Of a stretch of 64,000 nucleotides of DNA, positions 1,173 through 33,567 are shown one piece after another (positions within the stretch are counted from its first letter, which is position 1; every line of letters starts with the position of its first letter). The DNA is from a virus. The position numbers were made by a program, and so were the translations under genes. A model generated the notes under the pieces. That model had not been told where the DNA came from. It did not search any database and saw nothing but the letters and a program-made list of their open reading frames with translations. The DNA is taken from the IMG/VR virus record IMGVR_UViG_3300047557_004430. One strand, given 5' to 3'.

Positions 1173-2135
1173 ATGCCTAATCTATATAAAGGTTTTTACT
1201 ATAATCCAACGACAAACACTATTTACATCGGCTCAAACGGTATTTTGGCTGGTAAGATAGACAGTTTGGGTAGAGTTGGATTCGGAGTAGGAGATGCGGC
1301 TTTAACTGCACAAGTTACTTTTTCTGGTTCATCAGGAACTCCTCCTCTTAGATTGATTGGGCTAACCGTCGACTCTTCAGCACCAAAATTTTTGGTAGTT
1401 GATAACGATGGGTTCATTAAGTTCAGAGAGGATGTAACAACAGGGGTAACAATTTCAAACAACGTTGTAACCACAACAAATAGTAGTGGAGGAACGACAA
1501 CGTTCACCGTAAACGCAATCACAGGTGGCACTTTTGCGGGAGAAACAATTACAGTTCAAGGTTCAGGTACAATTTCCAACATAACAGGTATAAAGACACT
1601 CTATAATACTGACGGAACTTTATCGGGAAATAGAGTGATAACGGTTGGGTCTAACTCAATTACTTTTTCAGGTGCTTCTGCTAACATGGTTAGAGTTATC
1701 TATACAGGTGCAACTCTATCAGATAAAGTTTTAGAATCAGGTACAGGAGCAGGTTCTAATTTCTATGTTACGGCAAATGGTGATTTATCCGCAACCTCCA
1801 AGTCTTTTTTGATTCCAAACAAACTAAAGCCAGGATTCATGTTAAGACATGGTTCACTCGAAGGACCTGAGCACGGGGTGTACGTAAGAGGTACTCTCAT
1901 AAGCCATAACAAAATCAAACTTCCAGACTATTGGGAATGGTTAGTTGATGAATCTACAATTACAGTTCAACTTACACCAATAGGAACTTTTCAGAAATAT
2001 CTAGTTAAGTCAGTCTCAACATCAGAAATCGAAATCTCCAATCTCGAGAATTCAGAAAACATAAATTGTTTTTATATTGTACATGGAGAGAGAAAAGATA
2101 TTGATAAAATGATTGTTGACGAAAAGACTAACTAA
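1173..2135 (+). CDS. Virion fibre/spike protein with C-terminal SKSF..LRHGSLEGPE domain
   Basis: 320 aa, beta-rich (G/T/S/V); C-terminal domain shared with flanking genes; paralogous to the C-terminal ~290 aa of 2135..6199. Confidence 0.75.
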   Translation: MPNLYKGFYYNPTTNTIYIGSNGILAGKIDSLGRVGFGVGDAALTAQVTFSGSSGTPPLRLIGLTVDSSAPKFLVVDNDGFIKFREDVTTGVTISNNVVTTTNSSGGTTTFTVNAITGGTFAGETITVQGSGTISNITGIKTLYNTDGTLSGNRVITVGSNSITFSGASANMVRVIYTGATLSDKVLESGTGAGSNFYVTANGDLSATSKSFLIPNKLKPGFMLRHGSLEGPEHGVYVRGTLISHNKIKLPDYWEWLVDESTITVQLTPIGTFQKYLVKSVSTSEIEISNLENSENINCFYIVHGERKDIDKMIVDEKTN

Positions 2136-5100
2136 TGGCTTGTAATTATTACGACTTATACATTGACCCGAACGACATAAACAATGCGGTCAATAATAAT
2201 GCCTACCTTGATTATACTGTATACGTCTCATATTATGATTGTGACGGAAATCTTCAAGTAACAACTTATGGTGCTAGCGGAACATTTACTAATGCATTTT
2301 GTTCTGATACAAGTTACGGTGTAATAACTTTATATTATTATAATACCGACCAGTATTATACTGCGCTTAATAGTAATACAACCGTTGCTGGAAACTGTGG
2401 TACACCAACCCCGACTCCAGCAGTCACAAGTACACCAACACCAACAAATCCTTATGGGTGTTTTTCTATAACTTATCAAAGTACAAATACAATTACAAAT
2501 AATTGCGGTGGTACAAGCTACCCGTATACTTATGAAACTTGGAGAATAAGTTATCTTAATGGTGTTGTGAACCAAAATGTTGGTGTAATGTGGGAATATT
2601 ACATCAATGACCCATGTGGTTCGAGTGGACCTGTAGGAGTAACAGCAACAATTTTACAAGGGAACTCTTACGTAGATGTTATCTTAGATACATCTGTATA
2701 CATTGATTGCCCACCTGACCCTACATGTTACGAACAAACAAATTATATGATTGGTATTGTGAGTGCAGATACGTCGTGTTCTGCATTAGCAGTAACTCCA
2801 ACACCAACAACAACAACTACTTTGACTGCCACCCCATCGACAACTCCAGCTGTAACCCCAACGCCAACGACAACAACTACCTTAACATCAACACCAACCC
2901 CAACAAATAACACTTCAATATGGCTTGGAACCGTAAATAATTACAATGACTCCTCCTCAGCCTGCGCAAACTATAGTACTTCAAGAAGTTTCTACGCAAA
3001 TCCTGGTAACAACTGGGGGTTGATTTCGAATGTTACAAGATTTTATGACGATGTATTCTTAACAACTCCGACTAATGGTGGAAATAAGTGGTATGGTGTA
3101 ACTAGAATGGGTGACCCAAACACTATCTATGCAATACAGATTGATACTAACGGTTATCTTATAAATTATACATCTTGTCCTACACCAACACCACAACCTA
3201 CTCAAACCCGTACTCCTGATGCAACGCCTGCTGTAACACCTACACAGACAAGGACACCAACAACAACTCCTACAGCTACTCAATTTACTCAATACACATC
3301 CGCAACAACTTGTAACACATTAATACAATCAAGTGCTTGGGGAGGCTCAGGGGGAAGAGGAATCTATACAATAACAGTTGATGTAGGTAATGGTACAGGT
3401 AATATGACCTTAACCTATGATGCACAAACAATACCTGATAGATTTCAGGTTTATTGGAATAATATACTTCAGATAGATACTGGATTTGTTTCCGATTGTT
3501 GGCCAAGTAGTTGTTCAAGTTATAATTCACAATTAAATGCTTTGGGATATTCCAACGTAAGTGGTCCTAACGGAAGTCAAAGTTTTAATAAAACCTCACA
3601 AAGTCCTTCTGTAATTACAATTGTTGTTACCGCACCTCTAACAAACACGGTTTGGTCAGGGACTCTATCTTGTCCAGCCGATGTGACCCCAACTCCGACA
3701 GCCGCAGTTACCTCCACACCGACACCAACTACAACAACAACTTTAACTGCAACACCTACGCAAACACCAACCACAACGACTACCTTGACCGCTACTCCAA
3801 CTCAAACTCCAACTACAACAACAACTTTAACTGCAACTCCTACACAGACCCCTACTACAACAACTACGTTAACTGCAACACCAACTCAGACTCCAACAAC
3901 TACAACAACACTTACGGCTACCCCAACACAAACATCTACACAAACTCCTACAACCACAACTACGCTTACTGCAACGCCGACTCAAACCCCAACAACAACT
4001 ACTACTTTAACAGCCACTCCGACTCAAACCCCAACAACTACTACAACTTTAACTGCAACGCCGACTCAAACCCCAACCACAACTACTACTTTAACAGCCA
4101 CTCCGACTCAAACCCCAACAACAACCACAACTTTAACTGCAACGCCAACTCAAACTCCCACACAGACTCCAACTACAACTACTACGTTGACTGCAACGCC
4201 AACTCAAACTCCCACACAAACACCAACTACAACTACTACGTTGACTGCAACGCCAACCCAAACTCCAACACAGACTCCAACAACAACTACAACTCTTACT
4301 GCGACTCCAACCCAAACTCCAACACAGACTCCAACTACAACTACTACGTTGACTGCAACCCCTACTCAAACTCCGACACAAACACCTACAACAACTACAA
4401 CTCTTACTGCAACCCCAAGTGAGACCCCAACCCAAACACCTACAACAACAACTACTTTAACATCTACGCCAGCAGAAACTCCTACACAGACTCCGACTAC
4501 CACAACAACACTTACCGCAACACCGACTCAGACAGCAACACAGACCCCAACGACAACCACAACCCTTACTGCAACAGCTACACAGACACCTACATCTCAA
4601 TTGACCCCAACTCCAACAAGTACACCTACACAAACAAACACACCGTCAAATAGTCCAACTCCTGCAATTACATCTACTCAAACTTCTACACCTACACAAA
4701 CCAATACCCCATCAAATAGTCCAACACCAAGTATTACTGCTAGCCCAACAAATACTCCAACACAAACAAACACCCCTTCTAATTCGGCTACACCACAAAT
4801 AACAACTACTCCGACTCAAACACCAACCACAACAACTACTTTGACTGCAACACCAACACAAACAAATACTCCTTCTAATAGTCCATCACCAAGTATTACC
4901 GCTAGTCCAACAACTACTCCAACACAAACAAACACGCCATCAAATTCACCAACTCCATCCATCACATTATCACCAACACCTACAACTACAACCACTCTCA
5001 CCGCAACTGCCACCCAAACTCCAACTACAACGACCACACTTACCTCAACTCCAGCTCAAACAAGTACACCCACACCTACCACAACAACGACTTTAACTGC

Positions 5101-6199
5101 AACTCCGAGTCAAACTCCAACTAACACTCCGACTACTACTACAACTTTGACCTCAACACCTACGCCTACAGATACACCATCAATTACAGAAACCCCAACA
5201 CCATCACCAACTACGACTACAACGATATCTGCAACCCCGAGTCAAACACCAACGTTAACCATGACTCCAACTACAACAACAACCCTGACTGCAACACCTA
5301 CCAACACACCAAGTCCAACACCTACAAACCATCCTGTTGAATTCGCGGCAAACGGATTTTTCTACGAACCATCAACAGGAAATCTCTATGCAACTACTGA
5401 CGAGACAATAAGAGTTACATTCAGCGGTGCATCCGTTGGCGTTAATTTTTTAAATCCTACTCAAATTATTTTTACAGCAGCAATTGCTCAGAGAGGACTT
5501 AAATTCATTGGACTCGAGTCAGGCAATTCAAATTTCTCTTTAGCCTCGGATTCTGATGGTGTAGTTTATAAGGTAAACGTACCTGCTGCCTCTATAAGTG
5601 TAACATCTTTTGATTCGGCTTCGGGAGGAACTGTATCAAATAACACGATTAATTTTACAGGTAATGGGGTCAATACAAGTGTTACTATTCCTGAAGTTTA
5701 TTTCACAAACGGTACGTTATCATCAAACAGAATTGTTTCAGTGGGACCATATTCCATTACTTTCGGAGGACAAGGGTCTTCAATATTCAAAGTTGTAAAT
5801 ACGACTGGAAATGCATTCGAAACGGGAACTTCTAATGGAATCAACTTCTATGTTGATTATCAAGGAGGTGTATATGCCACATCAAAATCGTTCTGGATTA
5901 ATAACCCAATTAAAAATGGTTACAAGTTAAGACATGGGTCTTTAGAAGGACCTGAGAACGGAGTTTACTTTAGAGGTAAAACAGATTTAGACAAAATTGA
6001 AATACCTCAAGAATGGAGTTGGTTGGTGGATTTTGATTCAATCACTGTTTCATTAACATCAACTTGTGGTGATGAATTATATGTAGAATCAATCACAGAC
6101 CTTTGGATTAAAGTCGGTGGGGTTGACTGTGAATACTTCTATGTAATAAATGGTGAAAGAAAAGATATTGACGATTTGAATATCGATTTAATAGGTTAA
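2135..6199 (+). CDS. Large virion surface protein: Cys-rich modules, mucin-like Thr-Pro stalk, fibre C-terminal domain
   Basis: 1354 aa; TPTTTTTLTATPTQ repeats; C-terminal ATSKSFWINN..LRHGSLEGPENGVYFRG. Confidence 0.8.
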   Translation: MACNYYDLYIDPNDINNAVNNNAYLDYTVYVSYYDCDGNLQVTTYGASGTFTNAFCSDTSYGVITLYYYNTDQYYTALNSNTTVAGNCGTPTPTPAVTSTPTPTNPYGCFSITYQSTNTITNNCGGTSYPYTYETWRISYLNGVVNQNVGVMWEYYINDPCGSSGPVGVTATILQGNSYVDVILDTSVYIDCPPDPTCYEQTNYMIGIVSADTSCSALAVTPTPTTTTTLTATPSTTPAVTPTPTTTTTLTSTPTPTNNTSIWLGTVNNYNDSSSACANYSTSRSFYANPGNNWGLISNVTRFYDDVFLTTPTNGGNKWYGVTRMGDPNTIYAIQIDTNGYLINYTSCPTPTPQPTQTRTPDATPAVTPTQTRTPTTTPTATQFTQYTSATTCNTLIQSSAWGGSGGRGIYTITVDVGNGTGNMTLTYDAQTIPDRFQVYWNNILQIDTGFVSDCWPSSCSSYNSQLNALGYSNVSGPNGSQSFNKTSQSPSVITIVVTAPLTNTVWSGTLSCPADVTPTPTAAVTSTPTPTTTTTLTATPTQTPTTTTTLTATPTQTPTTTTTLTATPTQTPTTTTTLTATPTQTPTTTTTLTATPTQTSTQTPTTTTTLTATPTQTPTTTTTLTATPTQTPTTTTTLTATPTQTPTTTTTLTATPTQTPTTTTTLTATPTQTPTQTPTTTTTLTATPTQTPTQTPTTTTTLTATPTQTPTQTPTTTTTLTATPTQTPTQTPTTTTTLTATPTQTPTQTPTTTTTLTATPSETPTQTPTTTTTLTSTPAETPTQTPTTTTTLTATPTQTATQTPTTTTTLTATATQTPTSQLTPTPTSTPTQTNTPSNSPTPAITSTQTSTPTQTNTPSNSPTPSITASPTNTPTQTNTPSNSATPQITTTPTQTPTTTTTLTATPTQTNTPSNSPSPSITASPTTTPTQTNTPSNSPTPSITLSPTPTTTTTLTATATQTPTTTTTLTSTPAQTSTPTPTTTTTLTATPSQTPTNTPTTTTTLTSTPTPTDTPSITETPTPSPTTTTTISATPSQTPTLTMTPTTTTTLTATPTNTPSPTPTNHPVEFAANGFFYEPSTGNLYATTDETIRVTFSGASVGVNFLNPTQIIFTAAIAQRGLKFIGLESGNSNFSLASDSDGVVYKVNVPAASISVTSFDSASGGTVSNNTINFTGNGVNTSVTIPEVYFTNGTLSSNRIVSVGPYSITFGGQGSSIFKVVNTTGNAFETGTSNGINFYVDYQGGVYATSKSFWINNPIKNGYKLRHGSLEGPENGVYFRGKTDLDKIEIPQEWSWLVDFDSITVSLTSTCGDELYVESITDLWIKVGGVDCEYFYVINGERKDIDDLNIDLIG
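3697..5330 (+). repeat. Coding Thr-Pro tandem array (14-aa/42-bp then 18-aa/54-bp units, then TPTQTNTPSNSP variants)
   Basis: Directly visible in the translation; boundaries approximate. Confidence 0.9.
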
Positions 6200-6870
6200 T
6201 CTCTATTATCAATAAAAATCATAATTTCTCTATAATAAGGTATAAATTCAGGATTCCAAACTTGCCAAGTTATATCAATTCCATCAAATGAAAGAACTTT
6301 GAAATTCGGAAATACTCTTAGGTAGACATCTCTGAATATTTTGAATTTTTCTTTCATCCAATCATCTCCTAAGTGCCACTCACCTGCAATTTTTCTAACA
6401 TTATTTTTAATCCAAAATAAATTTTCTATGGTGAAAATATCGTATTCCCCTGTTTCACAATCGGTTTTAAGGAAGTCTATCTTTTGTATATTATAATCCT
6501 CTATGACCTTTTTAAATGTGGTTGAATATAGTTTTTGATTCTCAGTTTTTTCAAATACAAACCCGAAATCAAACTCACCTACTTTATCGGAGATACCCTT
6601 GTTAATATGAGTTACGTTTCCATGCCTAGTATTATATACTAAAGTTTTAAACTCTTCATAACTTGGTTCGAAAGCAAAAACCTGTGATGGATTCTTATGT
6701 AAGATTGAAAATGTGAATGGACCAAGACTGGCACCAATATCAAAAACTACGTCACCTTCTTCAACTTCAAAATACCTTTCGTAAATTTTATCTTCAAAAA
6801 TTTCTCTTGTTACTGTCTCTCTGAAACCATCATAACATTTTGGTTCCCATTTAAATTGTTCTAAATTCAT
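6196..6870 (-). CDS. FkbM-family SAM-dependent methyltransferase
   Basis: VVFDIGASLGPFT, VFAFEPS and IDFLKTDCETGEYDI motifs. Confidence 0.85.
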   Translation of the reverse strand: MNLEQFKWEPKCYDGFRETVTREIFEDKIYERYFEVEEGDVVFDIGASLGPFTFSILHKNPSQVFAFEPSYEEFKTLVYNTRHGNVTHINKGISDKVGEFDFGFVFEKTENQKLYSTTFKKVIEDYNIQKIDFLKTDCETGEYDIFTIENLFWIKNNVRKIAGEWHLGDDWMKEKFKIFRDVYLRVFPNFKVLSFDGIDITWQVWNPEFIPYYREIMIFIDNRD

Positions 6871-9800
6871 TTTAATAAATTTTGTATTTTATCTATAACC
6901 ATCTGTGACGTGATTGACTTATGGCATTCAAACTGCCTTTCAGTTCCTTTGTGAACAGGACACCAATTCCAATCCCCTTTGTCGAACTTGAATTCAGGGT
7001 TGTTCCAACATCCATTACAAACGAGTGGATTTGTGATTCTGATACAATCCAAGTTGAACTCGTGGTCAGGTGTTGTGAAATTGCTTATCATAACAACCTT
7101 CTTTCCCATACCCCAAGACAACCAAGATAATCCGCTTGATAAACCGATGAAAAATTCACTATGATGAATTACATTCATTGTGTTTTCAATCGACACATCT
7201 TTAATCTTAGTTACATTCTGAAAATCATTATCTTCTTTTGAAACGTTGACTACCCTATAACCTTGAGAAACAAGGTAATTGATTAGTTCTTGCCACCCCT
7301 CCTTTGTCCAAAATTTACAGCCAGCAGTTGAGTTTGTCGCTATCGTAACATACTTCCCATCATAAGGTTTTTGTGAAATATGATAATCAATTCTTGGTTT
7401 GATTTCACTATAATCCAAACCTAATATGTTGGTTGCAGCTTTTTGCAATGGAATTGTATTTGGAACTTCAGGTTCTTTGTCTTTATTCCAAAACCAACCA
7501 AGCTTGTACATACCATGAATGTTATGGACAACACTTCCTGGTTCTACAAACTGCAGCTCAGGATAAACTTTTTTGAATAGTTTGTTCCAAAAAGTTGATA
7601 CAATTACATCACACTTATGTTTGTTTTTAAATTCTAAACAATAAGGAATCCAAGCAATTGAATCACCCAAAGATTTACTATCAAATGATATAAAGACTCT
7701 CTGTCCTTCATAATTCAAAGTTCTATCTAAAACTAAGGTCTTATCATCATAAACTTTTGTTCTCCATCTTGTAAAATATTGTCTATTAAGTTTAATCCAC
7801 GAATTTACAGGTAATGTGTTTTCATAATGAATTACACCTTTCTCATCGAAGAATTGAATTTTGAATTTGGAAGTTGAATCACCTTTCAATTCGAGATATG
7901 GTTGTTCAATATAATATTGAGTTATATGTAAGTTTGAAGGAATTCTATTTTGTGGAATTACATTAATTTCTTTAACCTTTTTGTAAAAGTCTATGTGGTC
8001 CTTAGCAAATTTTTCAACACTATTATTTGGTGTAACAGAGTTCTTCTTTTTAGAAAATAATGAAACTAGTTGGTCTTTTATTTTTACAACGTCAGAACTT
8101 TCAATAGGGGTAATGTATTCTGTAAACATGTCGAAATATTGAGGAAGATTTCTTGCTAATATTTGTAAACCAAAAGAAGCTGCTTCTCTTAAAACAATTG
8201 GATTACATTCCCATGTTGAGTTGAACATGAGAATATCTGACGCTTTCATAAACTCATCGATATCTTCTCTTTCACCCCAAACTTTAACATTGGAAGGTAA
8301 GTTTTTCATAATTGGTCCCCAATAATTTTCAAAGTTGGATGCTTGATTACCAACAAAATGGAATTGTACGTGAGGGTTTGATTGTTCAATAAGTCTCGCA
8401 ACTTCAACACCCTCCCCTTGATTCTTACCTTCAGTCCACAACCCGACGTTCAGAACGTGAACTTTGTCGATATCCAGTCCCAATTTTTGTTGAGATACCA
8501 TTTGTTCAAATGAAGTTCTTGATTTGTTTTCGATTGGAAACTCAAAAACCTGTTTCAAAGTCTCAACATCTTTAAATTGAACTCTATCATGGTATGGAGT
8601 ACAGAAAGCAAATCCATCAGGAACAAACGAAATATTTTTTGGGTCGAACCATATGTTGTGGCATGTTTCAACAACACGCCAAGTTCTTGAGTTATCGAAA
8701 AGAGCGTTCAATACATTTTTTGAGATTTTGTTAAAACTATCGAATCCTTCAGGTATTTCGTCAATGTGTACTATATCAATTGAATTCTTTTTAATTATCT
8801 CAATCAACTTCATGGAGTTTTCCTCGGAATGGTTGTCCAAGTTATTGAGTGTCCAAAATCTATCTTCAGGTATTAGTAACTTAATTTTGTTTCTTTGAAC
8901 AACGTAAGTTGTTGCGTATAGACAAAACTCTACCACATACAAATCAATATCAGGATAATATTTTAATATTGATTCAATCCTTTTCAGTAAATAAGATGGC
9001 ATTCCACCTGTTGAAAGGTGAGGGGCAAAAAATAAAACTTTCAACTTTTTGTTTTGTTTATTTTTAATTTTTTTGACCATTTCTCTCATCTTTTGTGGAT
9101 TTTTTTCACCGTGGAAAAACAATAAATGAGATAAATCCTGAGGAGCTCTTAACCAATCACCAAAAAAATTGAATTCATTCGGTCCTTTGTATTCAATCTC
9201 ATCATACATTTTATCAACTATATCGACACTTCCGTTAACATATATGTAAGGTAAACCTTGGTGGATATGATTTTTCCAAAGAAGAACATTAACAATTGTT
9301 TCTTCGTTGAATGGTGCGTAATGATTGATATTCTTCCAAATTTTTGGGTGGTTACACATCCAATACCACTCATCGATGAAATCTGTTGTTTTTTGACCAG
9401 CAACAAAATAACCTGTCTGTCTATAAAACTTTCTTATGGTTTGGTCAACACCGAATAATTTACATGCATTGTATTCCAAAGTAGATTCCCAATCTCCACC
9501 ATGTTGGGGTCCTCCACCGCCTTTCCCATATAGGGTCATATATTCATAGATACCCTCCACAAAATATGGGAATGAAGAATCTTTATCAAATAAAGAAAAT
9601 ATCTTGTCTACGTTAGGAGTTGCAACAGAGTCACTATCAACATAACAAACGGTTTCGGCGTGCTTAGAAAGAGCGTCTTTAATTATTAAAGGTCTTTGAA
9701 TTAAAATTTTGTAGATATCAGAGTTTCTTCTGTCTATGTAAAAATTATCATTTTCTTTTGTGTAACAATTATCTGATAAATTTTGAAGTGAACAATCCCA

Positions 9801-10664
9801 CCTGATAGTCCTTGTGTTAGATACCTCAACCACTTTGTCTGAATTCAACATGTAAACTATAATAGGTAGTTGACTGAATTCTCTGATTGACCTTACTGAT
9901 TCGTTTATGATATCGAAATAATTTTCGGTTGAATATAAAACATATGCTTTAGGGAACTTGAGGGCATTGAAATAGTTTTGTTCCATTTCTTTTTCGTAGT
10001 TTTGATGTTGTCCTTCATTGTCTGAAAAACTTTCAGATTGTGAAAAAACCATAGGTATTGTTATACCAAAGTTAAATTTTTTATGTTTCGGGGAGTGAAT
10101 AAACCTGTATTTTTCTGATGAACAATCGTTCAAAAACATATCTATTGTGCATTTGAATAACCAATGGTCTGACTTTAAAAAATTGGATAAGTGAGAATAT
10201 GTGTGTTCAATTATATTTCTTCTATAATAAAGAGATTGGCAACATAACATCTCTTCGAAAGAACCATGAGTTTCACCATTAACGTTTATCTTACTTCTTG
10301 GTAACAACTTTGTCCCCAAAGCAACTAAGTCATAGCTGTTTTTGATTTCATCCCAATCATTAAAAATTTTATTTAAATCACGTTTGTTAACATTATCGAT
10401 TAATTTAATATCATCTTCAAACACAATTAGGTCTTGGTCGTCAGACTTTAACACCTCCTCGAAAATTTTCAAAAAAGAAGCCGTACTTCCAAGTTTTTTA
10501 AACTCAGGTTCTTCCATCATCACTCCTTCAAAAATTTCATATCCTGTAAATCCCAATTCATCCAAAAGCCTTGTGGAGCTTTCCAGTCTATCAGTTCTGT
10601 GTGGTAGGTTTATTATGTAACCCCTATCTGCAATTTTTTTTCCTTTATAGAAGAGACCTTTCAT
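6867..10664 (-). CDS. Multidomain glycosyltransferase: GT25-like + GT-A (DxD) + GT4-like + Aah/TibC-type protein O-heptosyltransferase domain
   Basis: GYIINLPHRTDRL and IVFEDD; VCYVDSD; FFAPHLSTGGMPSYL, NQGEGVE, DILMFNSTWECNPIVLREAASFGL; VFISFDSKSLGDSIAWIPY, FFIGLSSGLSWLSWGMGKKVVMIS, CNGCW..WCPVH..FECHKSI. Confidence 0.85.
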   Translation of the reverse strand: MKGLFYKGKKIADRGYIINLPHRTDRLESSTRLLDELGFTGYEIFEGVMMEEPEFKKLGSTASFLKIFEEVLKSDDQDLIVFEDDIKLIDNVNKRDLNKIFNDWDEIKNSYDLVALGTKLLPRSKINVNGETHGSFEEMLCCQSLYYRRNIIEHTYSHLSNFLKSDHWLFKCTIDMFLNDCSSEKYRFIHSPKHKKFNFGITIPMVFSQSESFSDNEGQHQNYEKEMEQNYFNALKFPKAYVLYSTENYFDIINESVRSIREFSQLPIIVYMLNSDKVVEVSNTRTIRWDCSLQNLSDNCYTKENDNFYIDRRNSDIYKILIQRPLIIKDALSKHAETVCYVDSDSVATPNVDKIFSLFDKDSSFPYFVEGIYEYMTLYGKGGGGPQHGGDWESTLEYNACKLFGVDQTIRKFYRQTGYFVAGQKTTDFIDEWYWMCNHPKIWKNINHYAPFNEETIVNVLLWKNHIHQGLPYIYVNGSVDIVDKMYDEIEYKGPNEFNFFGDWLRAPQDLSHLLFFHGEKNPQKMREMVKKIKNKQNKKLKVLFFAPHLSTGGMPSYLLKRIESILKYYPDIDLYVVEFCLYATTYVVQRNKIKLLIPEDRFWTLNNLDNHSEENSMKLIEIIKKNSIDIVHIDEIPEGFDSFNKISKNVLNALFDNSRTWRVVETCHNIWFDPKNISFVPDGFAFCTPYHDRVQFKDVETLKQVFEFPIENKSRTSFEQMVSQQKLGLDIDKVHVLNVGLWTEGKNQGEGVEVARLIEQSNPHVQFHFVGNQASNFENYWGPIMKNLPSNVKVWGEREDIDEFMKASDILMFNSTWECNPIVLREAASFGLQILARNLPQYFDMFTEYITPIESSDVVKIKDQLVSLFSKKKNSVTPNNSVEKFAKDHIDFYKKVKEINVIPQNRIPSNLHITQYYIEQPYLELKGDSTSKFKIQFFDEKGVIHYENTLPVNSWIKLNRQYFTRWRTKVYDDKTLVLDRTLNYEGQRVFISFDSKSLGDSIAWIPYCLEFKNKHKCDVIVSTFWNKLFKKVYPELQFVEPGSVVHNIHGMYKLGWFWNKDKEPEVPNTIPLQKAATNILGLDYSEIKPRIDYHISQKPYDGKYVTIATNSTAGCKFWTKEGWQELINYLVSQGYRVVNVSKEDNDFQNVTKIKDVSIENTMNVIHHSEFFIGLSSGLSWLSWGMGKKVVMISNFTTPDHEFNLDCIRITNPLVCNGCWNNPEFKFDKGDWNWCPVHKGTERQFECHKSITSQMVIDKIQNLLK

Positions 10665-11644: not shown

Positions 11645-12289
11645 TTAGGATTTATAAAAATAAGAGAGGGTATCAAGACCATTCCAAAACCCAACAGGTT
11701 CAAATTGGATGGTATTTTGAGAAATAATTTCCATATCAAATTCCTCTACAAAAGACCTAAAAAGTTCTGGATTCATGTTAGCTCTACCACCGAAGTTTTG
11801 GAAAGAATATTCTTCACCTCCACCAATCCATGAGTGATGAATAAAACCATATCCACCATTAACAAGAACTCTAGATATTTCTTTTACGTAACTTTCAACA
11901 ACGTTTTTGTGCATATGAACAAAGGAATCGAATGAAAAAACTAAGTCTACCGAATTTGTTGGTATCGAAGAAAGGGTTAAACCATCGTTAACATGGTATT
12001 CCTTGATATGAGAACCCAACTTCTTTTTTGTTTGTTCTATACAAGTTTCGTTCAAATCAACAACGATTAATTCATCGGCAAGAATAGATAAAAATTGACT
12101 GATTCTCCCATGACCAGGGGCAATCTCTAAAATTTTTTTACCTCTAAATTTTTTTAGGGGTTCGAACAGATAGTTATTCCATAGGTTCTCAGTCGTACCA
12201 AATGATTTTGACCATTCGTGACCCCCATCTGTCCACAAGCTTAATTTATTCCAAATCCTTTGCTCTTCGATATTATTAAAATCGCTCAT
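11645..12289 (-). CDS. Class I SAM-dependent methyltransferase
   Basis: ILEIAPGHGR, VVDLN, VDLVFSFDSFVH and SRVLVNGG motifs. Confidence 0.85.
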   Translation of the reverse strand: MSDFNNIEEQRIWNKLSLWTDGGHEWSKSFGTTENLWNNYLFEPLKKFRGKKILEIAPGHGRISQFLSILADELIVVDLNETCIEQTKKKLGSHIKEYHVNDGLTLSSIPTNSVDLVFSFDSFVHMHKNVVESYVKEISRVLVNGGYGFIHHSWIGGGEEYSFQNFGGRANMNPELFRSFVEEFDMEIISQNTIQFEPVGFWNGLDTLSYFYKS

Positions 12290-12328: not shown

Positions 12329-12508
12329 CTATTTTTTTGAATCTTTTTTTGCCTGTTTTGAATTGTAAAGGCGTAACAACTTTAGAGAATCCTTATAATG
12401 TTTTTCAAGTCGGTCTAATTCTTCAAGTGATGTGTTTGTCTCGCTTGCCGCATTATACTGTTCCTCTGCTTCCTGAATAATCTTCTTTATCGTTTTAAGA
12501 AGTTTCAT
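12329..12508 (-). CDS. Small hypothetical protein (59 aa, MKLLKTIKKIIQEAEEQ...)
   Basis: Manual translation, below the track cutoff; TATTTAT at 12514-12520 on the same strand. Confidence 0.65.
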   Translation of the reverse strand: MKLLKTIKKIIQEAEEQYNAASETNTSLEELDRLEKHYKDSLKLLRLYNSKQAKKDSKK

Positions 12509-12600: not shown

Positions 12601-12616
12601 AGAGTAAATTAAATTG

Positions 12617-15600
12617 ATGGCGGGTTCGAATTATTATTTGCTTCAACAATGTGGTACCGCAAATACTGCTATAGGGTCTTCAGCTAATCCTGGATTGGTT
12701 GGTACATTCTATTATGAATCAATTCCAAACATTTGTTGGGAGGTTATAGGTACTGACCTTGGTCCCACCTATACTGTTGATATCGATACTTTGTTGGGGA
12801 TTTTGGATTGTACGGACCCTTTGTGTGGATTAGGTCCAACACCAACACCATCTGAAACCCCACAAATAACTTCATCACCAACACCAACTAACCCTGCTGG
12901 TTGTATAACATTAACTTATCAATCTAGTTTCTTCGGCTCAACATGTAACGGACCAAACACCTATGAACAACAAACATGGAGATTTGAATATACACCAGGT
13001 GTTGTTAATCAAAATGTAACTATTGATTATGAGTACAATCAAACGGACAACTGTCCAAGTGGTGGTCCTTCGGGTACTTTTACAGGTACAACGATAATTA
13101 CTGCAGGTAATTCTTACGTAGATATCTTTATCACCGCAAGTAACTATGATGATTGTGGATTTGGACCTCCGAACTGTTTTTCATTCACTCAATCTCTAAC
13201 AGGATTATTTTCCATATCGCCAGATTGTGTGGCTTTATCAGTTACACCCACACCAACACCTACACCAAACGAAACTCCAACACAAACACCTACGCCTGAT
13301 GTAACTCCAACAAATACTCAAACCCCTTCACCAACAAATTGTATTGTTTCTGGCTCCGCTTATTTTGGAGACACAATAGAAAAAGCTTGTTCTTATTCTG
13401 TATCGGGTATAAGTGTTATTTTCAGTGCGGACACTTGTGATTTGTGTACTGCAACCTCACTTACAGGTAATACATTTGCATCTCAAACTACTGGTACATA
13501 CTATCTCAACTATAACTCTCAGTATATTACTATTTCACTGACTCAGTTTAGTAATATTGTTTCAGTAATTTCAGTGGGATGTAGTGTTTGTCCGACACCT
13601 ACGCCAACCCCAACACCATCATCAACACCACTCGTTGATTGTTCAAGTTGTAGTGGAACAGGGTGGTTACCATATGATTCAACAACTTGTTATAGAATTT
13701 CTGTTACAGCTGCAACAGCACCTTCAACAATTGTAACAGCAGAACCTACAGGTGGATTTAGTGAATATTCTAGATACGGCTCATATTTTTATCAACCAGG
13801 TTATGATATTTGTGGTACAGGTTCAACTTACGGACTTGTTACTACTCAGGTAGTTTGGGCCAACTCAGGACAAACAACAAACATAGGACCTTTGAATAGA
13901 AGTGCGATATGGGATGTACCTGGTCCTGGTGCACAACCACCCTATAATACTTGGTTAGGTTTCTCAACTTGTTTATCTGGACTCACCTCTACCAAAACAT
14001 ATTATGTTGGTATCGCTGCGGATAATGATTGGAGATTCATTTTAGACGGGGTAACTATTTTGGATACCACAGTACCACCAGCCCCTTATGATAACTCAAC
14101 TTTAGCTTTCATTTTTTGGCATGTTTATCCTGTAACAATCGGTGCGGGAAATCACACTTTACAAGTTTTTGGATTGAATAGAGGTTCAGTTGCGGGTTTT
14201 GGATGTGAAATATATGATGCATCTTTATCCACGCTGACTGGGGCAACATCCTTGAACGACCTTAATATTATTTTCTCAACTAGCGGTCAGGCAACTTTCG
14301 ATTTAGTACAACAAGTTGGATTACCTCCATCCTCTTCTGGATGGACTTGTCCTTCTACCGCATATACATATTCTGTTTGTAGTGGAAATTGTACACAAGT
14401 CGAATATTGTGTAGTAGGAGTAACACCAACCCCGACTCAGACGCCAGATACAACACCAACCCAAACACCAACATTTACACCAACCCCGAATACAACACCG
14501 CCAATAACCCCGACACAAACCACGACTCAAACTACTACTTACACACCTACACCGACAACCACTGAAATTTGTGACGTAATAACTTGTGCCAGTCGTTGTT
14601 GTGAGGTAAAATTACTGAATGAAACAGGTTCCCCAATTGCATATTCGTACTACGATTGTGATGGTAATTTTGTGAGCTCATCACTAAGTGGTGGTGCAAA
14701 TACAACAATTTGTTTGGACCAATCCTATGGTGCGTTAAGTGCAGGTTCACTTACAGTTTATGATTGGGCTTGTTGTGCAGGACCGCCACCGACACCATCG
14801 GAGACACCTACTTCTACACCAACATTTACCCCGACTGAAACAGTTACGCAAACACCAAACGAAACACCTACCTCTACACCAACTTTTACCCCGACTGAAA
14901 CAGTTACGCAAACACCAAACGAAACCCCAACACAAACCCCTACCTTGACTCCCGACCCAACAAGTACACCTACAGCAACAGTTGGTTCAACACCGACCCA
15001 AACTCCTACCAATACTATAACTCCAACCGAAACTATTACTCAAACACCGACTGAAAGTCCAACAGAAACTCCTACACAAACACCAACTGAAACTATCACA
15101 CAAACACCAACAGAATCTCCGACTGAGACCCCTACAAATACGCCAACTCCAACTGAAACACCTACAAGCACTGCAGGAGTAACTCCAACTCCTACAGAGA
15201 CACCAACAGAGACTCCGACTGAAACACCAACAGAGACTCCGACACAAACCCCTACTAACACAGAAACTCCAACTCAAACTCCGACGAATACTCAGACACC
15301 GACAAATACAATGACCCCTACACAAACTATGACTCAAGGGTTTTTATATGGGTTTGCTGACTGTGTTACATTGGAAGAATTCAGATTTGAAGATGTGACT
15401 GGTACTTTAGTTGTTGGAAAAACTTATCTCATAACAGGTTCTTCTGAGTATGAAGGTTGTGCAACTTGTATATCGCCAGGAAGTGGTCCAATCTATCAAG
15501 GGGTTGGAGTTACTTTCACTGAGATGTCTGGATGTGGAGATGATTTTTGTCCAAGGGTATCAAGTAAAGCTGCTCTATTAGTAAACTGTAGAACTGAGGC

Positions 15601-17773
15601 AATATTCTACGCGAATGTGGATGCAGATACTGCTTACCAAGGTGCGGTTTATGAATACAATAATGGTTGTTATAGATTTGAAGAGTTCTCAGGTCCTGGT
15701 GGCCCTGACTTAGGAGCACCTGATTGGGGTGATTGTCCATCATGTTTAAATAACACACCAACACCTACACCATATTCTACACCTACTGTTACTCCAACAG
15801 TATCGTCTACACCTGCAGCTTGTGACTCAGGAGATTTTTGTTTGACTACAAGTTTGCCAGGTTTAGTTAACTACAACGGACAATATACATCAGGTTCAAC
15901 TTATAATGGAAGAGTTACTTATTCAGGTGGAAGTATCAGTACAGGTGTTGTTTACTACTTCACTTCATCAACAGAAAGTTATTGGTGTTTAAGTACAACT
16001 TTGGGAGGAACTTGTTTACTCAAAGGTTCCAACCCATGTTATTCTGCTTGTCCTGATATTTCATTCGGTTCGTTTGTTTCAGGTGTATGTCCAACCCCAA
16101 CACCAACCCCAATTGATTGTTCGACTTTTGATTTTAATGCATATTTCGATTGTGATTGGGAACCTGTTCCAACACCAAGTCCGTCAATTGATTGTGACGA
16201 TACTGGATTCCAAGTAACATCAATACCTTTAACTCCAACACCAACACCTTCGGGAGTTTTCTGTACAGGTAAAGCCGTTTCATTTGTGATTAACGAAATT
16301 CCATCAGAATCACCAACACCAACTCCGACACCAACCATTACTCTCACAAAGACTGTTGATGCGTCAGGGAAAGTTACATTCAATATTTTTGAAGAATCAT
16401 TCAGTTGTGTTTCTGTTAAAGTTCTCAATAAATGTGGTACAGATATAGAATACTATACTTCAGACCCACTTGTTTATAACAACACACCAGTTGGAGCAGG
16501 TATGGTAATGTTAGCAATAGTTAACGAAGAAATTATTTGTGTAAAGTACTTGAGAGATGATTCTAACCTGTCCTCTAACTCTAATGTTGATGCCGTACTT
16601 TCAATCTATGGAAACAACTGTACAAATTGTTCTGATTTACCAACACCTACACCAACAACCACACCTACTCAAACAGGTACGCCAAGTGTATCTATCACAC
16701 CAACACAAACTCAATCGCCAACTCAAACAGCTACCTCAACGCCAACCCCAACAACTACACCACCTCCAGGTGCTACACCAAGTGCGACACCAAGACCAAC
16801 TAACTCAAGCACTCCTACACCAACAAATACACCACAGGCAAGCCCTACCCAAACTCCGACCCAAACATTCACACCAACTCCTTCGGTAACACCTAATTGG
16901 AGATATGTATATTCTTCATGTTCTTCAATTTCACCTAATGTTTACCCAACATATTTGATTCAAACAGTACAATCTCCGATTCAGACTGTTGTCGGAAATC
17001 AATTTAAAGATAATCAAGGTAACTGTTGGACTTATGAGGGCAGATTCGAACCTAACTACATTCCACCACCATTAACAGTATCTCAATCTTATTCAGGTGA
17101 TTATTTTGCAGGACAACCAGCAATTACCTTTACCGCTTGTACTGATTGCCAAACAATCATAATACCTCCTTGTAATGAAATTTACTTCCAAGCAACTAAG
17201 TGTGGTACTTCAGATACTGTTGTAGTAAGAGCATGTGATTTGGGTCCTTGCCAAACTCTAAACTTTGGTATCACAACAGGTCAGTTCTGTGTTACACCAC
17301 AAGTTGGAATGACTGTCGGAGTATTTAATTCTGAAGGTGGAGATGATTTCTGTGTGGTTCTTGATTCAATAGTTTCACCTCAACCTTCAACTCTATATGT
17401 TGGAACACCAGCTTATGCAGGATTCTCATTCTGTTCTTGTCCTCTTTATAGAGTTTATAAAGGAAATTCGTGTGATGGACTAAATGTTGATGTTGCGATT
17501 TATGATTCACCGTTGAATCCGATTATACCAAATAACAAAGTTGTTAGCACAGACATTAAGTGTTACACAATTACCGAATATGTTGGAATCAAAAACGTTT
17601 ATCCGTTCTTACCAGGAATTGCACCTTTAGTCAGTGGACCAGCTGTGAATGATTGTCCAACGTGTTTATCACCAGGAGGAACTATATTCTGTAAAGTTGG
17701 GGATGATTGTTTGGAAGTTGCATTAACCCCAGGAGCTGCAACATGTGCAGACTTAGGATATCCTGACTGTTAA
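12617..17773 (+). CDS. Giant Cys-rich virion surface protein with Thr-Pro linkers and a PA14-like domain
   Basis: About 1718 aa; many Cys-rich modules separated by TPTPT/TPTET tracts; [29 protein letters not shown]; ATG at 12617. Confidence 0.75.
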
Positions 17774-17790: not shown

Positions 17791-18009
17791 ATGGGACTTG
17801 AAGTAACAATAAACGGAATCACAGGTACATCACCATTCGACCTTTACATATGCCAACCAAACGGCAGTGGATGTTTTTATATTAGTACAATATCTAGCAA
17901 CTCATATAATTTCATAATCCCACCACCTTACGATACAGGTTTGGCTTATATGTTAAAAGTAGTTGATGCTCAAAACTGTATTATTTCAGGTGTAACAAGT
18001 ATAACATGA
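17791..18009 (+). CDS. Small beta-rich Cys protein, paralog of the N-terminus of 18006..19004
   Basis: 72 aa; alignable by eye with residues 1-69 of the next gene. Confidence 0.7.
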   Translation: MGLEVTINGITGTSPFDLYICQPNGSGCFYISTISSNSYNFIIPPPYDTGLAYMLKVVDAQNCIISGVTSIT

Positions 18010-19004: not shown

Positions 19005-19057
19005 GATTTATAAAATAATCCGATTTCTTATAATTATAGGATATAATAGTTCAATAA

Positions 19058-33163: not shown

Positions 33164-33567
33164 TTAGAGGAATAACCGCAGGAACTTTTGATTTACTTCA
33201 CACGGGTCACATACTGATGTTAAAAGAAGCTAAGGAACAGTGTGATTATTTGATATGTGCATTACATGTTGACCCATCAATCGAACGCGAATCCAAAAAC
33301 AAGCCAATCCAAACTGTATATGAGAGATACATACAATTGAGAGCTGTTTCATATGTTGATGAGATAATTCCCTATGAAACAGAGGAAGAGTTGGAAACGA
33401 TTCTCCAAACTGAAAATATTGATGTTAGGATAATTGGGGAAGATTATCTCGGAAAATACTTTACAGGTCATTATCTTTATGAATCTGGAAAGATGGAACT
33501 CCATTATAATAAAAGAGCCCATAACTATAGCTCAACGGAACTTAGAAACAGAATAAAACAATCTTAA
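33160..33567 (+). CDS. Cytidylyltransferase-family nucleotidyltransferase (TagD/HldC-like)
   Basis: GTFDLLHTGH (HxGH), YERY, VDEIIPYETE, YSSTELRNRI. Confidence 0.85.
   Translation: MIRGITAGTFDLLHTGHILMLKEAKEQCDYLICALHVDPSIERESKNKPIQTVYERYIQLRAVSYVDEIIPYETEEELETILQTENIDVRIIGEDYLGKYFTGHYLYESGKMELHYNKRAHNYSSTELRNRIKQS

What the first reader, a model, noticed from the sequence alone, without database searches (positions are those of the whole stretch)
6867..10664. Four glycosyltransferase domains in one polypeptide, ending in an Aah/TibC-like domain with an intact Cys tetrad
Seen: GT25-like (about 9960-10664), GT-A with DSD (about 9050-9955), GT4-like (about 7965-9045), then a TibC-like beta-domain plus GT-B with CNGC..WCP..FEC (about 6867-7920). 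Known: the TibC/Aah Cys tetrad binds ferric iron, the enzyme forms a dodecamer and uses ADP-heptose, and heptose is reported absent from Bacteroides LPS cores. Inference: a processive assembly line that primes Ser/Thr and then elongates, possibly using a non-heptose donor in a Bacteroidota host.
Basis: partly seen in the sequence, partly recalled or inferred. Interest (0 to 1): 0.78.

Follow-up and report, generated by a model that had tools for sequence, protein, structure and literature searches.

The report
Phage four-domain fibre-glycosylating enzyme
A large uncultured freshwater phage encodes one 1265-residue soluble protein that joins four sugar-transferase domains, the last a true but "thumbless" relative of the E. 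coli adhesin-heptosylating enzyme TibC; it lies between giant threonine/proline-rich phage proteins and most likely sugar-coats them, though no experiment has tested this.

Summary
Window 6867-10664 (-) is one 1265-aa ORF with four glycosyltransferase domains at almost exactly the stated boundaries:
- GT25 fold
- GT8/GT6-like GT-A with an invariant D343-S-D345
- GT4 with an E-x7-E motif
- a TibC/Aah-type domain: TIGR04414 279 bits against a cut-off of 200; TM 0.85 to PDB 4RAP

The catalytic Asp, the phosphate and sugar contacts and all four iron-finger Cys are kept. Three things differ from TibC. The ring-forming beta-hairpin thumb is 10 residues shorter. The adenine-contact Arg286 is Thr. The domain falls in an environmental and phage sister clade of the classical autotransporter heptosyltransferases.

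The host is a jumbo phage, syntenic with a complete 326-kb IMG/VR genome, and no autotransporter was found in five related phage records (two complete). The likely acceptors are the adjacent giant Ser/Thr-rich proteins. 42 of 53 related loci hold one, against about 18% of random windows.

Relatives carry an RfaE-like kinase and adenylyltransferase, but the donor remains unknown. A dodecamer is doubtful.

This scan has already found the same kind of enzyme in at least 10 other phage genomes. I found no paper describing it. I class it as a new variant of a known kind.

The parts
6867..10664 (-). P0001: a 1265-aa soluble four-domain glycosyltransferase. Stop codon at 6867-6869. No transmembrane segment (maximum KD19 0.98).
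9960..10664 (-). Domain 1, residues 1-235: GT25-fold GT-A with an invariant E83-D84-D85.
   Evidence: Pfam PF01755 26.7 bits. Fold match to ColGalT1 Z 16.9-17.7 and mimivirus R655 Z 15.3. Invariant columns.
9030..9959 (-). Domain 2, residues 236-545: GT8/GT6-like retaining-type GT-A. The DxD motif is D343-S-D345 (nt 9630-9638).
   Evidence: No Pfam hit. Fold matches LgtC Z 16.1, BoGT6a 15.6, glycogenin 14.3, GlyE 13.9. D343 and D345 invariant.
7965..9029 (-). Domain 3, residues 546-~900: GT4 GT-B with an E-x7-E motif at 819-827.
   Evidence: PF00534 44.3 bits and PF13692 36.9 bits. Motif. Present in 53 of 53 related IMG/VR loci.
6870..7964 (-). Domain 4, residues ~901-1265: TibC/Aah-type (BAHT-like) domain with a beta-barrel, a GT-B core and a Cys4 finger. 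Key residues are D1001, T1113, K1117, S1176, W1181 and C1216/1219/1235/1247 (Cys codons between nt 6924 and 7019). T1162 stands in place of TibC R286. The thumb is shortened by 10 residues after residue 1146.
   Evidence: TibC residue roles from PMC4358343.
10661..11611 (-). Separate 316-aa GT9-family glycosyltransferase. It overlaps the P0001 start by 4 bp and is a distant GT9, not TibC-like.
   Evidence: PF01075 38.3 bits. LPS heptosyltransferase models score only about 22 bits. BLASTP to domain 4 gives E 3e-4. 77% identical orthologue in G001.
11645..12289 (-). Class I SAM methyltransferase, 214 aa.
   Evidence: PF08241 and PF13649 47.7 bits each.
12329..12508 (-). 59-aa charged ORF at the head of the minus-strand operon. 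Function unknown.
   Evidence: Sequence. Called as a gene on the identical JGI contig.
6196..6870 (-). FkbM-type methyltransferase, 224 aa. It overlaps the P0001 stop by 4 bp.
   Evidence: PF05050 28.8 bits. phrog_8156. Fused to the GT in many relatives.
2135..6199 (+). P0002: 1354 aa, 31% Thr and 10% Pro, with 42/54-nt tandem TP repeats at 3725-4575. It converges on the enzyme operon and is a candidate acceptor.
   Evidence: No Pfam family. No N-terminal hydrophobic signal.
12614..17773 (+). P0003: 1719 aa of Cys-rich modules joined by TP linkers. It diverges from the operon and is a candidate acceptor.
   Evidence: 48% identical orthologue lies next to the GT9 gene in G001.
18006..21622 (+). 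Two further TP-linker proteins (332 and 854 aa). The second carries SprB repeats. Both are candidate acceptors.

Best explanation
P0001 is the central enzyme of a phage-encoded, cytoplasmic, stepwise protein O-glycosylation system. It works with the adjacent GT9 enzyme and two methyltransferases, and together they build a short, probably methylated oligosaccharide on Ser/Thr of the phage's own giant Thr/Pro-rich (mucin-like) surface or fibre proteins before or during virion assembly.

Shown:
- The four domains and their folds.
- Intact catalytic and nucleotide-sugar-binding residues in the TibC-like domain.
- Solubility of the enzyme.
- The operon layout.
- The phage context.
- The recurrent neighbourhood with Ser/Thr-rich giants.

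Inferred:
- The TibC-like domain makes the protein-sugar bond, probably with an ADP-activated heptose.
- The GT4, GT8-like, GT25-like and GT9 units extend the glycan.
- The methyltransferases cap it.
- The swappable outer modules diversify the glycan between phages.

Because the ring-forming thumb is missing and the domain is tethered to about 900 further residues, it probably does not work as a TibC-style dodecamer.

BAHT active site:
- D110, K230 and W305 are kept in all 121 close relatives. In 147 diverse sequences (145 cluster representatives plus this protein and the Mel-JY01 domain) D110 and W305 are invariant, K230 is in 146 and the four Cys are in 146 each.

Location and layout:
- There is no TM segment in the enzyme and no signal-like N-terminus in P0002 or P0003.
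- The GT9, P0001 and FkbM genes overlap by 4 bp.

Phage identity:
- No cellular genome is held for the window.
- The window is collinear with 263-309 kb of a 326-kb IMG/VR genome that CheckV rates 100% complete.
- PHROG hits are present.

No classical substrate:
- No autotransporter domain was found in five related phage records, two of them complete.

Acceptors:
- Four TP-rich proteins flank the operon.
- 42 of 53 related IMG/VR loci of at least 15 kb hold an ORF with at least 200 residues in windows of at least 50% Ser+Thr, within 10 kb of the enzyme. About 18% of random 21-kb windows of G001 do.
- Sister-clade genes in bacterial MAGs and chromosomes also have a convergent ORF of 34-38% Ser+Thr next door.

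Donor:
- G001 and other relatives carry overlapping cupin, adenylyltransferase and PfkB kinase genes. The best family hits of the last two are rfaE domains II and I.

Modularity:
- GT4 plus the BAHT domain is present in 53 of 53 loci and domain 2 in 39 of 53.
- GT25, FkbM, PF13489, PF04488 and PF04230 modules come and go.
Against: - No glycan, glycoprotein or virion proteome exists for this phage or any relative.
- It is not shown that P0002 and P0003 are virion proteins. They have no Pfam or annotated PHROG family.
- The neighbourhood statistic uses a background from a single genome, and the loci include near-duplicates such as L026-L034.
- TibC recognises a folded beta-helix, not disordered TP repeats, so the true acceptor sites could be the Cys-rich modules or other proteins, such as the collagen-like fibres at 50.9-59.1 kb.
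- R286, whose Ala mutant abolished or largely diminished TibC activity (PMC4358343), is Thr here. It is variable across the sister clade.
- The RfaE-like genes score below the curated cut-offs (105.8 against 181.5, and 113.6 against 345). They are absent from one complete relative, G002, and were not found in the window. No gmhA was found.
Confidence: 0.6

Rival explanations
1. The system is the same, but the order of steps differs. The GT4 domain primes Ser/Thr with a hexose or HexNAc, as GtfA does for streptococcal serine-rich repeat proteins. The GT8-like domain extends, as GlyE does. The TibC-like domain adds heptose either to other sites or to the growing glycan.
For: - GT4 plus the TibC-like domain is the invariant pair in 53 of 53 loci and also in Mel-JY01.
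- Domain 2 resembles GlyE of the SRRP pathway at Z 13.9.
- That GtfA is a GT4 which primes Ser-rich repeats is established knowledge recalled from memory, not tested here.
Against: - Of the families named here (GT25, GT4 by Pfam, BAHT), the BAHT family is the only one whose characterised members all act directly on protein Ser (PMC4358343).
- The domain keeps the beta-barrel and the iron finger. In TibC the iron finger takes part in substrate recognition (PMC4358343).
- No GtfB-like partner was looked for.
Confidence: 0.15
2. The enzymes modify host components rather than the virion. Targets would be host surface proteins, adhesins or envelope glycans, and the purpose would be to block superinfection or to reprogramme the cell surface during infection.
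For: - Phage glycosyltransferases that alter host serotype are well known, as cited in PMC12619734.
- A SprB-repeat protein hints at a link to the gliding adhesins of Bacteroidota.
Against: - The enzyme is soluble and has no membrane segment. Seroconversion systems, from memory, act at the membrane.
- The operon is embedded among phage genes for Ser/Thr-rich giants, and this pairing recurs in 42 of 53 loci.
- The genome is a roughly 300-kb phage. Integrase or lysogeny genes were not searched for.
Confidence: 0.1
3. The enzyme builds a glycan on a non-protein acceptor, such as hypermodified phage DNA bases or a free or lipid-linked polysaccharide. On this view the Ser/Thr-rich neighbours are a coincidence.
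For: - Multi-glycosyltransferase DNA hypermodification in phages has been reported (Pyle et al. 2024, cited in PMC12619734).
- GT4, GT8 and GT25 enzymes commonly act on glycans.
Against: - TIGR04414 scores above its cut-off, and the TibC-specific beta-barrel and Cys4 finger are kept. In TibC the finger takes part in substrate recognition (PMC4358343).
- No hydroxymethyl-pyrimidine synthesis genes were seen next to the operon.
- The neighbourhood with Ser/Thr-rich ORFs is about four times the background.
Confidence: 0.06

Closest known systems
TibC and Aah, the bacterial autotransporter heptosyltransferases (BAHT; TIGR04414; PDB 4RAP/4RB4; Yao et al. eLife 2014, PMC4358343)
   Same: - Same fold: beta-barrel, atypical GT-B and Cys4 finger, with TM 0.85 and 30% identity.
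- Same catalytic Asp, the same phosphate contacts (Thr and Lys) and the same heptose-O4 Trp.
- Ser at the TibC P300 position, as in Aah.
- A soluble cytoplasmic enzyme.
   Different: - Fused behind three other GT domains and encoded by a phage.
- No autotransporter substrate was found in the related phage genomes.
- The beta-hairpin thumb, needed for the dodecamer ring, is 10 residues shorter.
- R286, the adenine contact, is Thr.
- It belongs to a sister clade, separated at 100% local support from the Enterobacterales, Burkholderiales and Negativicutes BAHTs.
- Neighbours are Thr/Pro-rich repeats, not AIDA-type beta-helix repeats.
Serine-rich repeat protein (SRRP) glycosylation of streptococci (GtfA/GtfB, then GlyD/GlyE and others; PDB 5GVV)
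   Same: - Cytoplasmic, stepwise O-glycosylation of very long Ser/Thr-rich repeat proteins by soluble GT4 and GT8 enzymes encoded next to the acceptor gene.
- Domain 2 matches GlyE at Z 13.9.
   Different: - Here the enzymes are fused into one chain and joined to a BAHT-type domain.
- No accessory Sec system is involved.
- The acceptors are phage proteins.
- Homology to GtfA itself was not tested.
Chlorovirus PBCV-1 A064R (three-domain enzyme with two GTs and a methyltransferase; N-terminal domain PDB 2P6W)
   Same: - A virus-encoded soluble multi-domain enzyme that combines GT-A domains with a methyltransferase to build a glycan on the virus's own structural protein.
- Domain 2 matches 2P6W at Z 13.3.
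   Different: - PBCV-1 makes N-linked glycans on the capsid protein of a eukaryotic virus.
- It has no GT-B or BAHT domain.
- It has a different domain order and no Ser/Thr-rich repeat acceptors.
Virion O-glycosylation of mycobacteriophages (Freeman et al. 2023, Cell Host Microbe, PMID 37329881; cited in PMC12619734)
   Same: Phage-encoded glycosyltransferases decorate the phage's own structural proteins. This is the only experimentally shown case of phage virion glycosylation that I found cited.
   Different: - There the glycans sit on C-terminal extensions of capsid and tail-tube subunits, in actinobacteriophages.
- No BAHT-type enzyme is reported in the text I could read.
- The primary paper was not read here.

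Membership tests
BAHT (TibC/Aah, TIGR04414) | Scores above the curated cut-off of the family model, and far above the LPS GT9 models. | tested here: met
   TIGR04414 scores 279.1 bits against a cut-off of 200. heptsyl_trn_I scores 25.7 bits.
BAHT (TibC/Aah, TIGR04414) | Protomer fold: an N-terminal flattened beta-barrel plus a GT-B core with a reduced N-lobe. | tested here: met
   The AF2 model has pLDDT 93.7. TM is 0.85 at rmsd 2.2-2.4 A to 4RAP, against 0.39-0.50 to WaaC/WaaF.
BAHT (TibC/Aah, TIGR04414) | Catalytic base Asp110 and donor contacts Thr226, Lys230 and Trp305. | tested here: met
   These correspond to D1001, T1113, K1117 and W1181. All are invariant in 121 relatives. Residue roles are from PMC4358343.
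BAHT (TibC/Aah, TIGR04414) | Arg286 contact to adenine N1, the stated basis of ADP-sugar specificity. | tested here: not met
   This position is Thr1162 in all 121 close relatives. Among 147 diverse sequences it is variable: T 44, R 35, V 25, I 13, L 13, A 10.
BAHT (TibC/Aah, TIGR04414) | Four-Cys iron finger (C339, C342, C358, C370). | tested here: met
   C1216, C1219, C1235 and C1247 align with the TibC residues. They are kept in 146 of 147 diverse sequences. Iron binding itself cannot be tested here.
   There is a 10-residue deletion that removes the tip in all 121 relatives. This region is 16 residues long against 25 in four bacterial BAHTs.
BAHT (TibC/Aah, TIGR04414) | Dodecameric assembly. 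| not testable with these tools
   Only inferred to be unlikely, from the missing thumb and the N-terminal fusion of about 900 residues.
BAHT (TibC/Aah, TIGR04414) | An autotransporter (AIDA/TibA-type) acceptor encoded alongside. | tested here: not met
   PF03797 is absent from five related phage records, including two complete genomes. The neighbours have no Pfam family. In bacterial loci the AIDA gene is adjacent.
BAHT (TibC/Aah, TIGR04414) | Falls inside the clade of characterised BAHTs. | tested here: not met
   In a FastTree of 136 rows, the window lies in an 86-row clade of environmental, phage and MAG sequences. This clade is separated at 100% local support from the 50-row clade that holds the AIDA-linked and TibC-like enzymes. 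The tree is midpoint-rooted with no outgroup.
BAHT (TibC/Aah, TIGR04414) | Uses ADP-heptose as donor. | not testable with these tools
   The only evidence is indirect. RfaE-like kinase and adenylyltransferase genes occur in the syntenic relatives G001 and G005 and a kinase in G004, but not in complete G002. No gmhA was found.
GT25 (PF01755) | Pfam score above the gathering threshold, a GT25 GT-A fold and an acidic metal-binding motif. | tested here: met
   26.7 bits against 24, which is marginal. ColGalT1 GT25 domain matches at Z 16.9-17.7. E83-D84-D85 is invariant.
GT8 (PF01501; LgtC/glycogenin type) | A family HMM match plus a GT-A fold with DxD. | tested here: inconclusive
   There is no Pfam hit. 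The fold matches LgtC at Z 16.1 and glycogenin at 14.3, but GT6 (BoGT6a) scores 15.6, which is a tie. DSD is invariant.
GT4 (PF00534) | Pfam score above threshold and an E-x7-E motif in the C-lobe. | tested here: met
   44.3 bits against 26.4. The motif lies at residues 819-827.

The most novel reading that the evidence does not exclude
Freshwater jumbo phages coat their fibres with a mucin-like glycan layer. A thumbless, non-dodecameric TibC-type domain would put a phage-supplied ADP-activated heptose on hundreds of Thr residues in TP repeats. The fused GT4, GT8-like and GT25-like domains, the neighbouring GT9 and the methyltransferases would then extend and cap it. Shuffling of the outer modules between phages would give each lineage a different glycan. 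This would be a phage-encoded, diversifying glycan shield or adhesin of a kind not described for any virus of bacteria.
Probability: 0.3. Interest if true: 0.8.

Novelty: new variant of a known kind. Interest (0 to 1): 0.62.

Why it matters
According to the one paper I read that discusses it (PMC12619734, citing Freeman et al. 2023), glycosylation of phage particles has been shown experimentally in mycobacteriophages; I found no other case cited. Protein O-heptosyltransferases are known only as partners of Gram-negative virulence autotransporters.

Here the same enzyme type appears in a structurally altered form. It has no ring-forming thumb and a changed adenine contact, and it is fused to GT4 and other transferases. 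The BAHT-like domain is abundant: 756 clusters at 50% identity score E <= 1e-30, mostly in multi-domain proteins. At least 229 IMG/VR contigs carry close relatives. The partner is different too, namely giant Ser/Thr-rich phage proteins.

If the inference holds, it would have four consequences:
- It would widen the BAHT family's biology from adhesin maturation to virus particles.
- It would provide a natural single-chain glycan assembly line for glycoengineering.
- It would suggest that the large Ser/Thr-rich ORFs of environmental phages are glycoproteins, which bears on host recognition, particle stability and grazing or defence evasion in lakes.
- It would show that the automatic name these proteins carry in JGI records, 'autotransporter strand-loop-strand O-heptosyltransferase', is over-specific.

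Tried and rejected
- **Dimer prediction.** Complex prediction with two copies of domain 4 gave no verdict (score 0.00, controls not run). It is not used as evidence either way.
- **Whole genome.** None is held for the window, so the rest of this phage could not be searched for gmhA, hldE or gmhB. Relatives were used instead.
- **gmhA (TIGR00441).** No match in five related phage records. Only two are complete, so this is weak evidence of absence.
- **Window search for the G001 genes.** tblastn with the G001 adenylyltransferase and kinase found only a 28% identical CTP_transf_like ORF at 33160-33567 and no kinase.
- **Known phages.** Megablast of 20 kb of the window against GenBank phages found no match.
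- **Sequence search of residues 1-560.** PDB found nothing, and Pfam found nothing for 230-560. The fold search was needed.
- **P0002 and P0003.** Pfam found no family. An Atlas look-up of the P0002 C-terminus gave only unnamed viral clusters.
- **Strict Thr+Pro criterion for neighbours.** It flagged only 23 of 53 loci. Many relatives have Ser/Thr-rich but Pro-poor neighbours, so I replaced it with a Ser+Thr criterion. A loose version of that had a 54% background and was tightened to at least 200 residues, which has an 18% background.
- **Bacteroidota promoter box TAnnTTTG.** 80 hits against 83 expected, so it is not usable as host evidence.
- **Literature.** No paper links BAHT/TibC to phages. 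There is no paper on Mel-JY01 in the library.
- **'Moraphages' (PMC12619734).** They resemble this lineage: freshwater, 200-307 kb, predicted Bacteroidota hosts, four core GT groups. Identity with this lineage was not tested.
- **Second TibC-like enzyme.** I considered and rejected the idea that the neighbouring 316-aa GT9 is one. BLASTP gives only E 3e-4 over 77 residues, and it has no Cys finger.

Full report
**1. Observation**

Window 6867-10664 on the minus strand is one uninterrupted 1265-codon ORF, P0001. Its start overlaps the stop of an upstream 316-aa gene by 4 bp, and its stop overlaps the start of a downstream 224-aa gene by 4 bp. The three are very probably co-translated members of one operon. 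A class I methyltransferase gene (11645-12289) and a 59-aa ORF (12329-12508) complete it. The region has 31-34% G+C.

**2. The four domains**

Sequence models recognise three of them:
- GT25: 26.7 bits against a cut-off of 24, residues 58-134.
- GT4 (Glycos_transf_1): 44.3 bits, residues 725-872.
- NCBIfam TIGR04414 'autotransporter strand-loop-strand O-heptosyltransferase': 279.1 bits against a cut-off of 200, residues 933-1262.

LPS heptosyltransferase I reaches only 25.7 bits.

Residues 230-560 match nothing by sequence. I folded residues 1-550 with an alignment of 29 relatives (A1; pLDDT 87.4, pTM 0.80) and searched structures:
- Residues 5-235 superpose on the GT25 domain of human ColGalT1 (Z 16.9-17.7) and on mimivirus R655 (Z 15.3).
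- Residues 235-540 superpose on retaining GT-A enzymes of the GT8 and GT6 types: LgtC 16.1, BoGT6a 15.6, glycogenin 14.3, GlyE 13.9, PBCV-1 A64R 13.3.

The GT4 domain has an E-x7-E motif at 819-827. BLAST of the four segments against 120 relatives gave sharp, reusable boundaries at about 235, 545 and 930, because the segments occur in different combinations.

**3. The TibC-like domain**

- By sequence, residues 955-1260 align with TibC (PDB 4RAP) at E 1e-53.
- A model of 885-1265 built on 52 diverse sequences (A2; pLDDT 93.7) matches TibC at TM 0.85 and rmsd 2.2-2.4 A, including the N-terminal beta-barrel. WaaC and WaaF give only 0.39-0.50.

I took residue roles from the TibC paper (PMC4358343) and TibC numbering from a 406-aa E. 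coli plasmid homologue. I then scored 121 close relatives and 147 diverse sequences (145 representatives of 50%-identity clusters plus this protein and the Mel-JY01 domain).

Kept:
- catalytic base D110 (D1001 here)
- T226 and K230, the beta-phosphate contacts
- W305, the heptose O4 contact
- C339, C342, C358 and C370, the iron finger
- F368

The stereoselectivity position P300 is Ser, as in Aah.

Changed:
- R286, the adenine N1 contact, is Thr in all 121 relatives and is variable across the wider clade.

A tree of 136 domains places the window in an 86-row clade of metagenomic, phage and MAG sequences. That clade is separated with 100% local support from a 50-row clade holding the AIDA-linked Salmonella enzyme, the TibC-like E. 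coli enzyme, and the Burkholderia, alphaproteobacterial and Negativicutes BAHTs. The tree was made with FastTree and is midpoint-rooted with no outgroup.

The domain is therefore a true BAHT homologue with an intact active site and Cys tetrad. It belongs to a distinct thumbless branch, and the dodecamer cannot be assumed.

**4. What carries it**

- No cellular genome is held for the window.
- Neighbouring genes hit PHROG families.
- The window also holds a phage sigma factor, an endonuclease V-like gene, an amidase and an SbcC-like nuclease.
- Of the 100 window ORFs of at least 80 aa, 44 match ORFs of G001, nearly all in collinear order with 263-309 kb of that 326,291-bp IMG/VR contig, at mostly 60-85% amino-acid identity. 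CheckV rates G001 100% complete.

The element is therefore a jumbo phage. Its exact sequence also occurs on short contigs of JGI sample 3300044825.

Host evidence is thin:
- One neighbour has SprB repeats.
- The closest hits in cellular genome bins are contigs binned as Chitinophaga (60%) and 'Bacteroides' (52% and 47%).
- The TAnnTTTG box is not enriched.

A published lineage of large freshwater phages with predicted Bacteroidota hosts and four core glycosyltransferase groups ('moraphages', PMC12619734) may be related. I did not test that.

**5. Family and modularity**

- The 120 best full-length relatives (at least 1435 bits) all contain domains 2-4, and 68 also have domain 1. This set is biased by ranking on total score.
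- Other modules are swapped in: FkbM, PF13489/PF08241 methyltransferases, PF04488, and a PF04230 pyruvyl-transferase-like insert.
- In 53 IMG/VR loci of at least 15 kb, chosen only by domain 4, a GT4 like domain 3 is present in 53, domain 2 in 39, the separate GT9 in 19, FkbM in 26 and domain 1 in none.
- An isolated phage, Microcystis phage Mel-JY01, has a 1226-aa protein annotated 'methyltransferase FkbM' that is a GT4 fused to a TibC-like domain (TIGR04414 317 bits).

The invariant unit is GT4 plus BAHT-like. The other modules are variable decorations.

**6. Likely acceptors**

The operon is flanked by P0002 and P0003. P0002 is 1354 aa, 31% Thr and 10% Pro, with 42/54-nt tandem repeats. P0003 is 1719 aa of Cys-rich modules joined by TP linkers. 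Two more TP-linker proteins follow. None has a signal-like N-terminus, and P0001 has no membrane segment, so enzyme and candidate acceptors would meet in the cytoplasm, as TibC meets TibA.

Five related phage records, including two complete genomes, have no autotransporter domain.

Across relatives, 42 of 53 loci hold an ORF with at least 200 residues inside windows of at least 50% Ser+Thr, within 10 kb of the enzyme. About 18% of random 21-kb windows of G001 do. The loci are not independent and the background comes from one genome. Sister-clade genes in bacterial chromosomes or MAGs (a Methylococcales MAG, Pseudobdellovibrionaceae and others) also have a convergent ORF of 34-38% Ser+Thr immediately downstream. 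This recurrent pairing is the main argument that Ser/Thr-rich proteins are the acceptors. It remains an inference.

**7. Donor**

I could not search this phage's genome beyond the window. In the syntenic complete relative G001, three overlapping genes encode:
- a cupin
- a 139-aa adenylyltransferase whose best NCBIfam hit is rfaE domain II (105.8 bits against a cut-off of 181.5)
- a 247-aa PfkB kinase whose best hit is rfaE domain I (113.6 bits against a cut-off of 345)

The same trio is on two ENA contigs. G005 has both enzymes and G004 has the kinase. Complete G002 has neither. No gmhA was found.

This points to an ADP-activated sugar of the heptose type made by some of these phages. It does not settle the matter, especially as R286 is replaced.

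**8. Mechanism and rivals**

- **Best reading (0.6).** A cytoplasmic, stepwise O-glycosylation line for the phage's own Ser/Thr-rich surface proteins. The BAHT-like domain makes the protein-sugar bond, the other GT units extend the glycan, and the methyltransferases cap it.
- **Close rival (0.15).** The same system with the GT4 domain as primer, by analogy with GtfA of the streptococcal SRRP pathway. That analogy is recalled knowledge and was not tested.
- **Less likely.** Host-surface modification (0.1), or non-protein acceptors such as DNA (0.06).

**9. Comparison and novelty**

The enzyme works like TibC/Aah at the active-site level and passes the family's HMM, fold, catalytic-residue and Cys-finger tests. 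It fails four family features: the thumb, the adenine-contact Arg, the adjacent autotransporter, and placement inside the classical clade. Conceptually the system resembles SRRP glycosylation, chlorovirus A064R and mycobacteriophage virion glycosylation.

I found no paper linking BAHT-type enzymes to phages. JGI's pipeline already names these proteins 'autotransporter strand-loop-strand O-heptosyltransferase'. This scan has reported the same enzyme type next to Ser/Thr-rich or collagen-like fibres in at least ten other phage genomes, with the same conclusions.

This instance differs in two ways. It has a GT25-fold first domain instead of a methyltransferase, and its neighbours are Thr/Pro mucin-like repeats rather than Gly-Thr-Ser fibres. 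I class it as a new variant of a known kind.

**10. Limits**

Everything about substrate, donor, metal and oligomer is inferred from sequence, models and gene neighbourhood. The dimer prediction gave no verdict. The tree has no outgroup. The neighbourhood statistic is rough.

Noticed in passing
G001 (IMG/VR 326-kb relative) 213.2-214.8 kb = L082 1082-2611; also L105 and L107 9242-10744: Three overlapping genes encode a cupin (127-136 aa), an adenylyltransferase (best family hit rfaE domain II) and a PfkB kinase (best hit rfaE domain I). A 317-aa unknown follows. There is no gmhA in the genome. This may be a phage route to an ADP-heptose-like sugar that uses a cupin in place of the SIS isomerase.
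   Followed up: partly
L199 14301-23053 (G001-type relative, just past the FkbM gene): A radical SAM gene, four PF13640 2OG-Fe(II) oxygenase (prolyl/lysyl-hydroxylase-like) genes, a methyltransferase and a Hint/intein protein lie beside the glycosylation operon. With a GT25 (collagen hydroxylysine galactosyltransferase-like) fold in this lineage, protein hydroxylation followed by glycosylation is worth testing. The window ends before the equivalent region.
   Followed up: no
L118 4750-8430 (Microcystis phage Mel-JY01, PP395634): Protein WWT39291 (1226 aa) of an isolated cyanophage is annotated 'methyltransferase FkbM'. It is in fact a GT4 fused to a TibC-like domain (TIGR04414 317 bits) and sits next to a 'structural protein' gene. 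This is a cultivable system in which virion glycosylation could be tested.
   Followed up: partly
L142 9196-10089, L127 9980-11581, L120 9600-11126, L122 11608-14418: Sister-clade TibC-like genes in bacterial MAGs (a Methylococcales MAG contig, Pseudobdellovibrionaceae and others) each have a convergent ORF of 34-38% Ser+Thr directly downstream. The enzyme and Ser/Thr-rich-protein pairing is therefore not confined to phages.
   Followed up: partly
window 33160-33567 (+): A 135-aa CTP_transf_like nucleotidyltransferase lies just upstream of a phage sigma-70-type factor gene (33569-34366). It is only 28% identical to the RfaE-like enzyme of G001. Its role is unknown.
   Followed up: partly
One copy lies 5 nt before the ATG of the methyltransferase gene, which is too close to be read as a promoter with confidence.
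   Followed up: yes
window 2135-6199 (+); L085 7098-9627: On the 100% identical JGI contig, the gene caller split the Thr/Pro-repeat gene into a 350-aa piece and an out-of-frame 250-aa piece. The A/C-rich repeats leave several frames open, so automatic annotations of such acceptor genes are unreliable.
   Followed up: yes
window 770-1110, 1790-2135, 5870-6199 (+): Three consecutive genes end in the same domain of about 115 aa (phrog_17490 and phrog_28536, function unknown). Atlas neighbours are unnamed viral clusters, with one weak lead to a Bacteroidota PTL_trimer cluster (score 0.83).
   Followed up: partly
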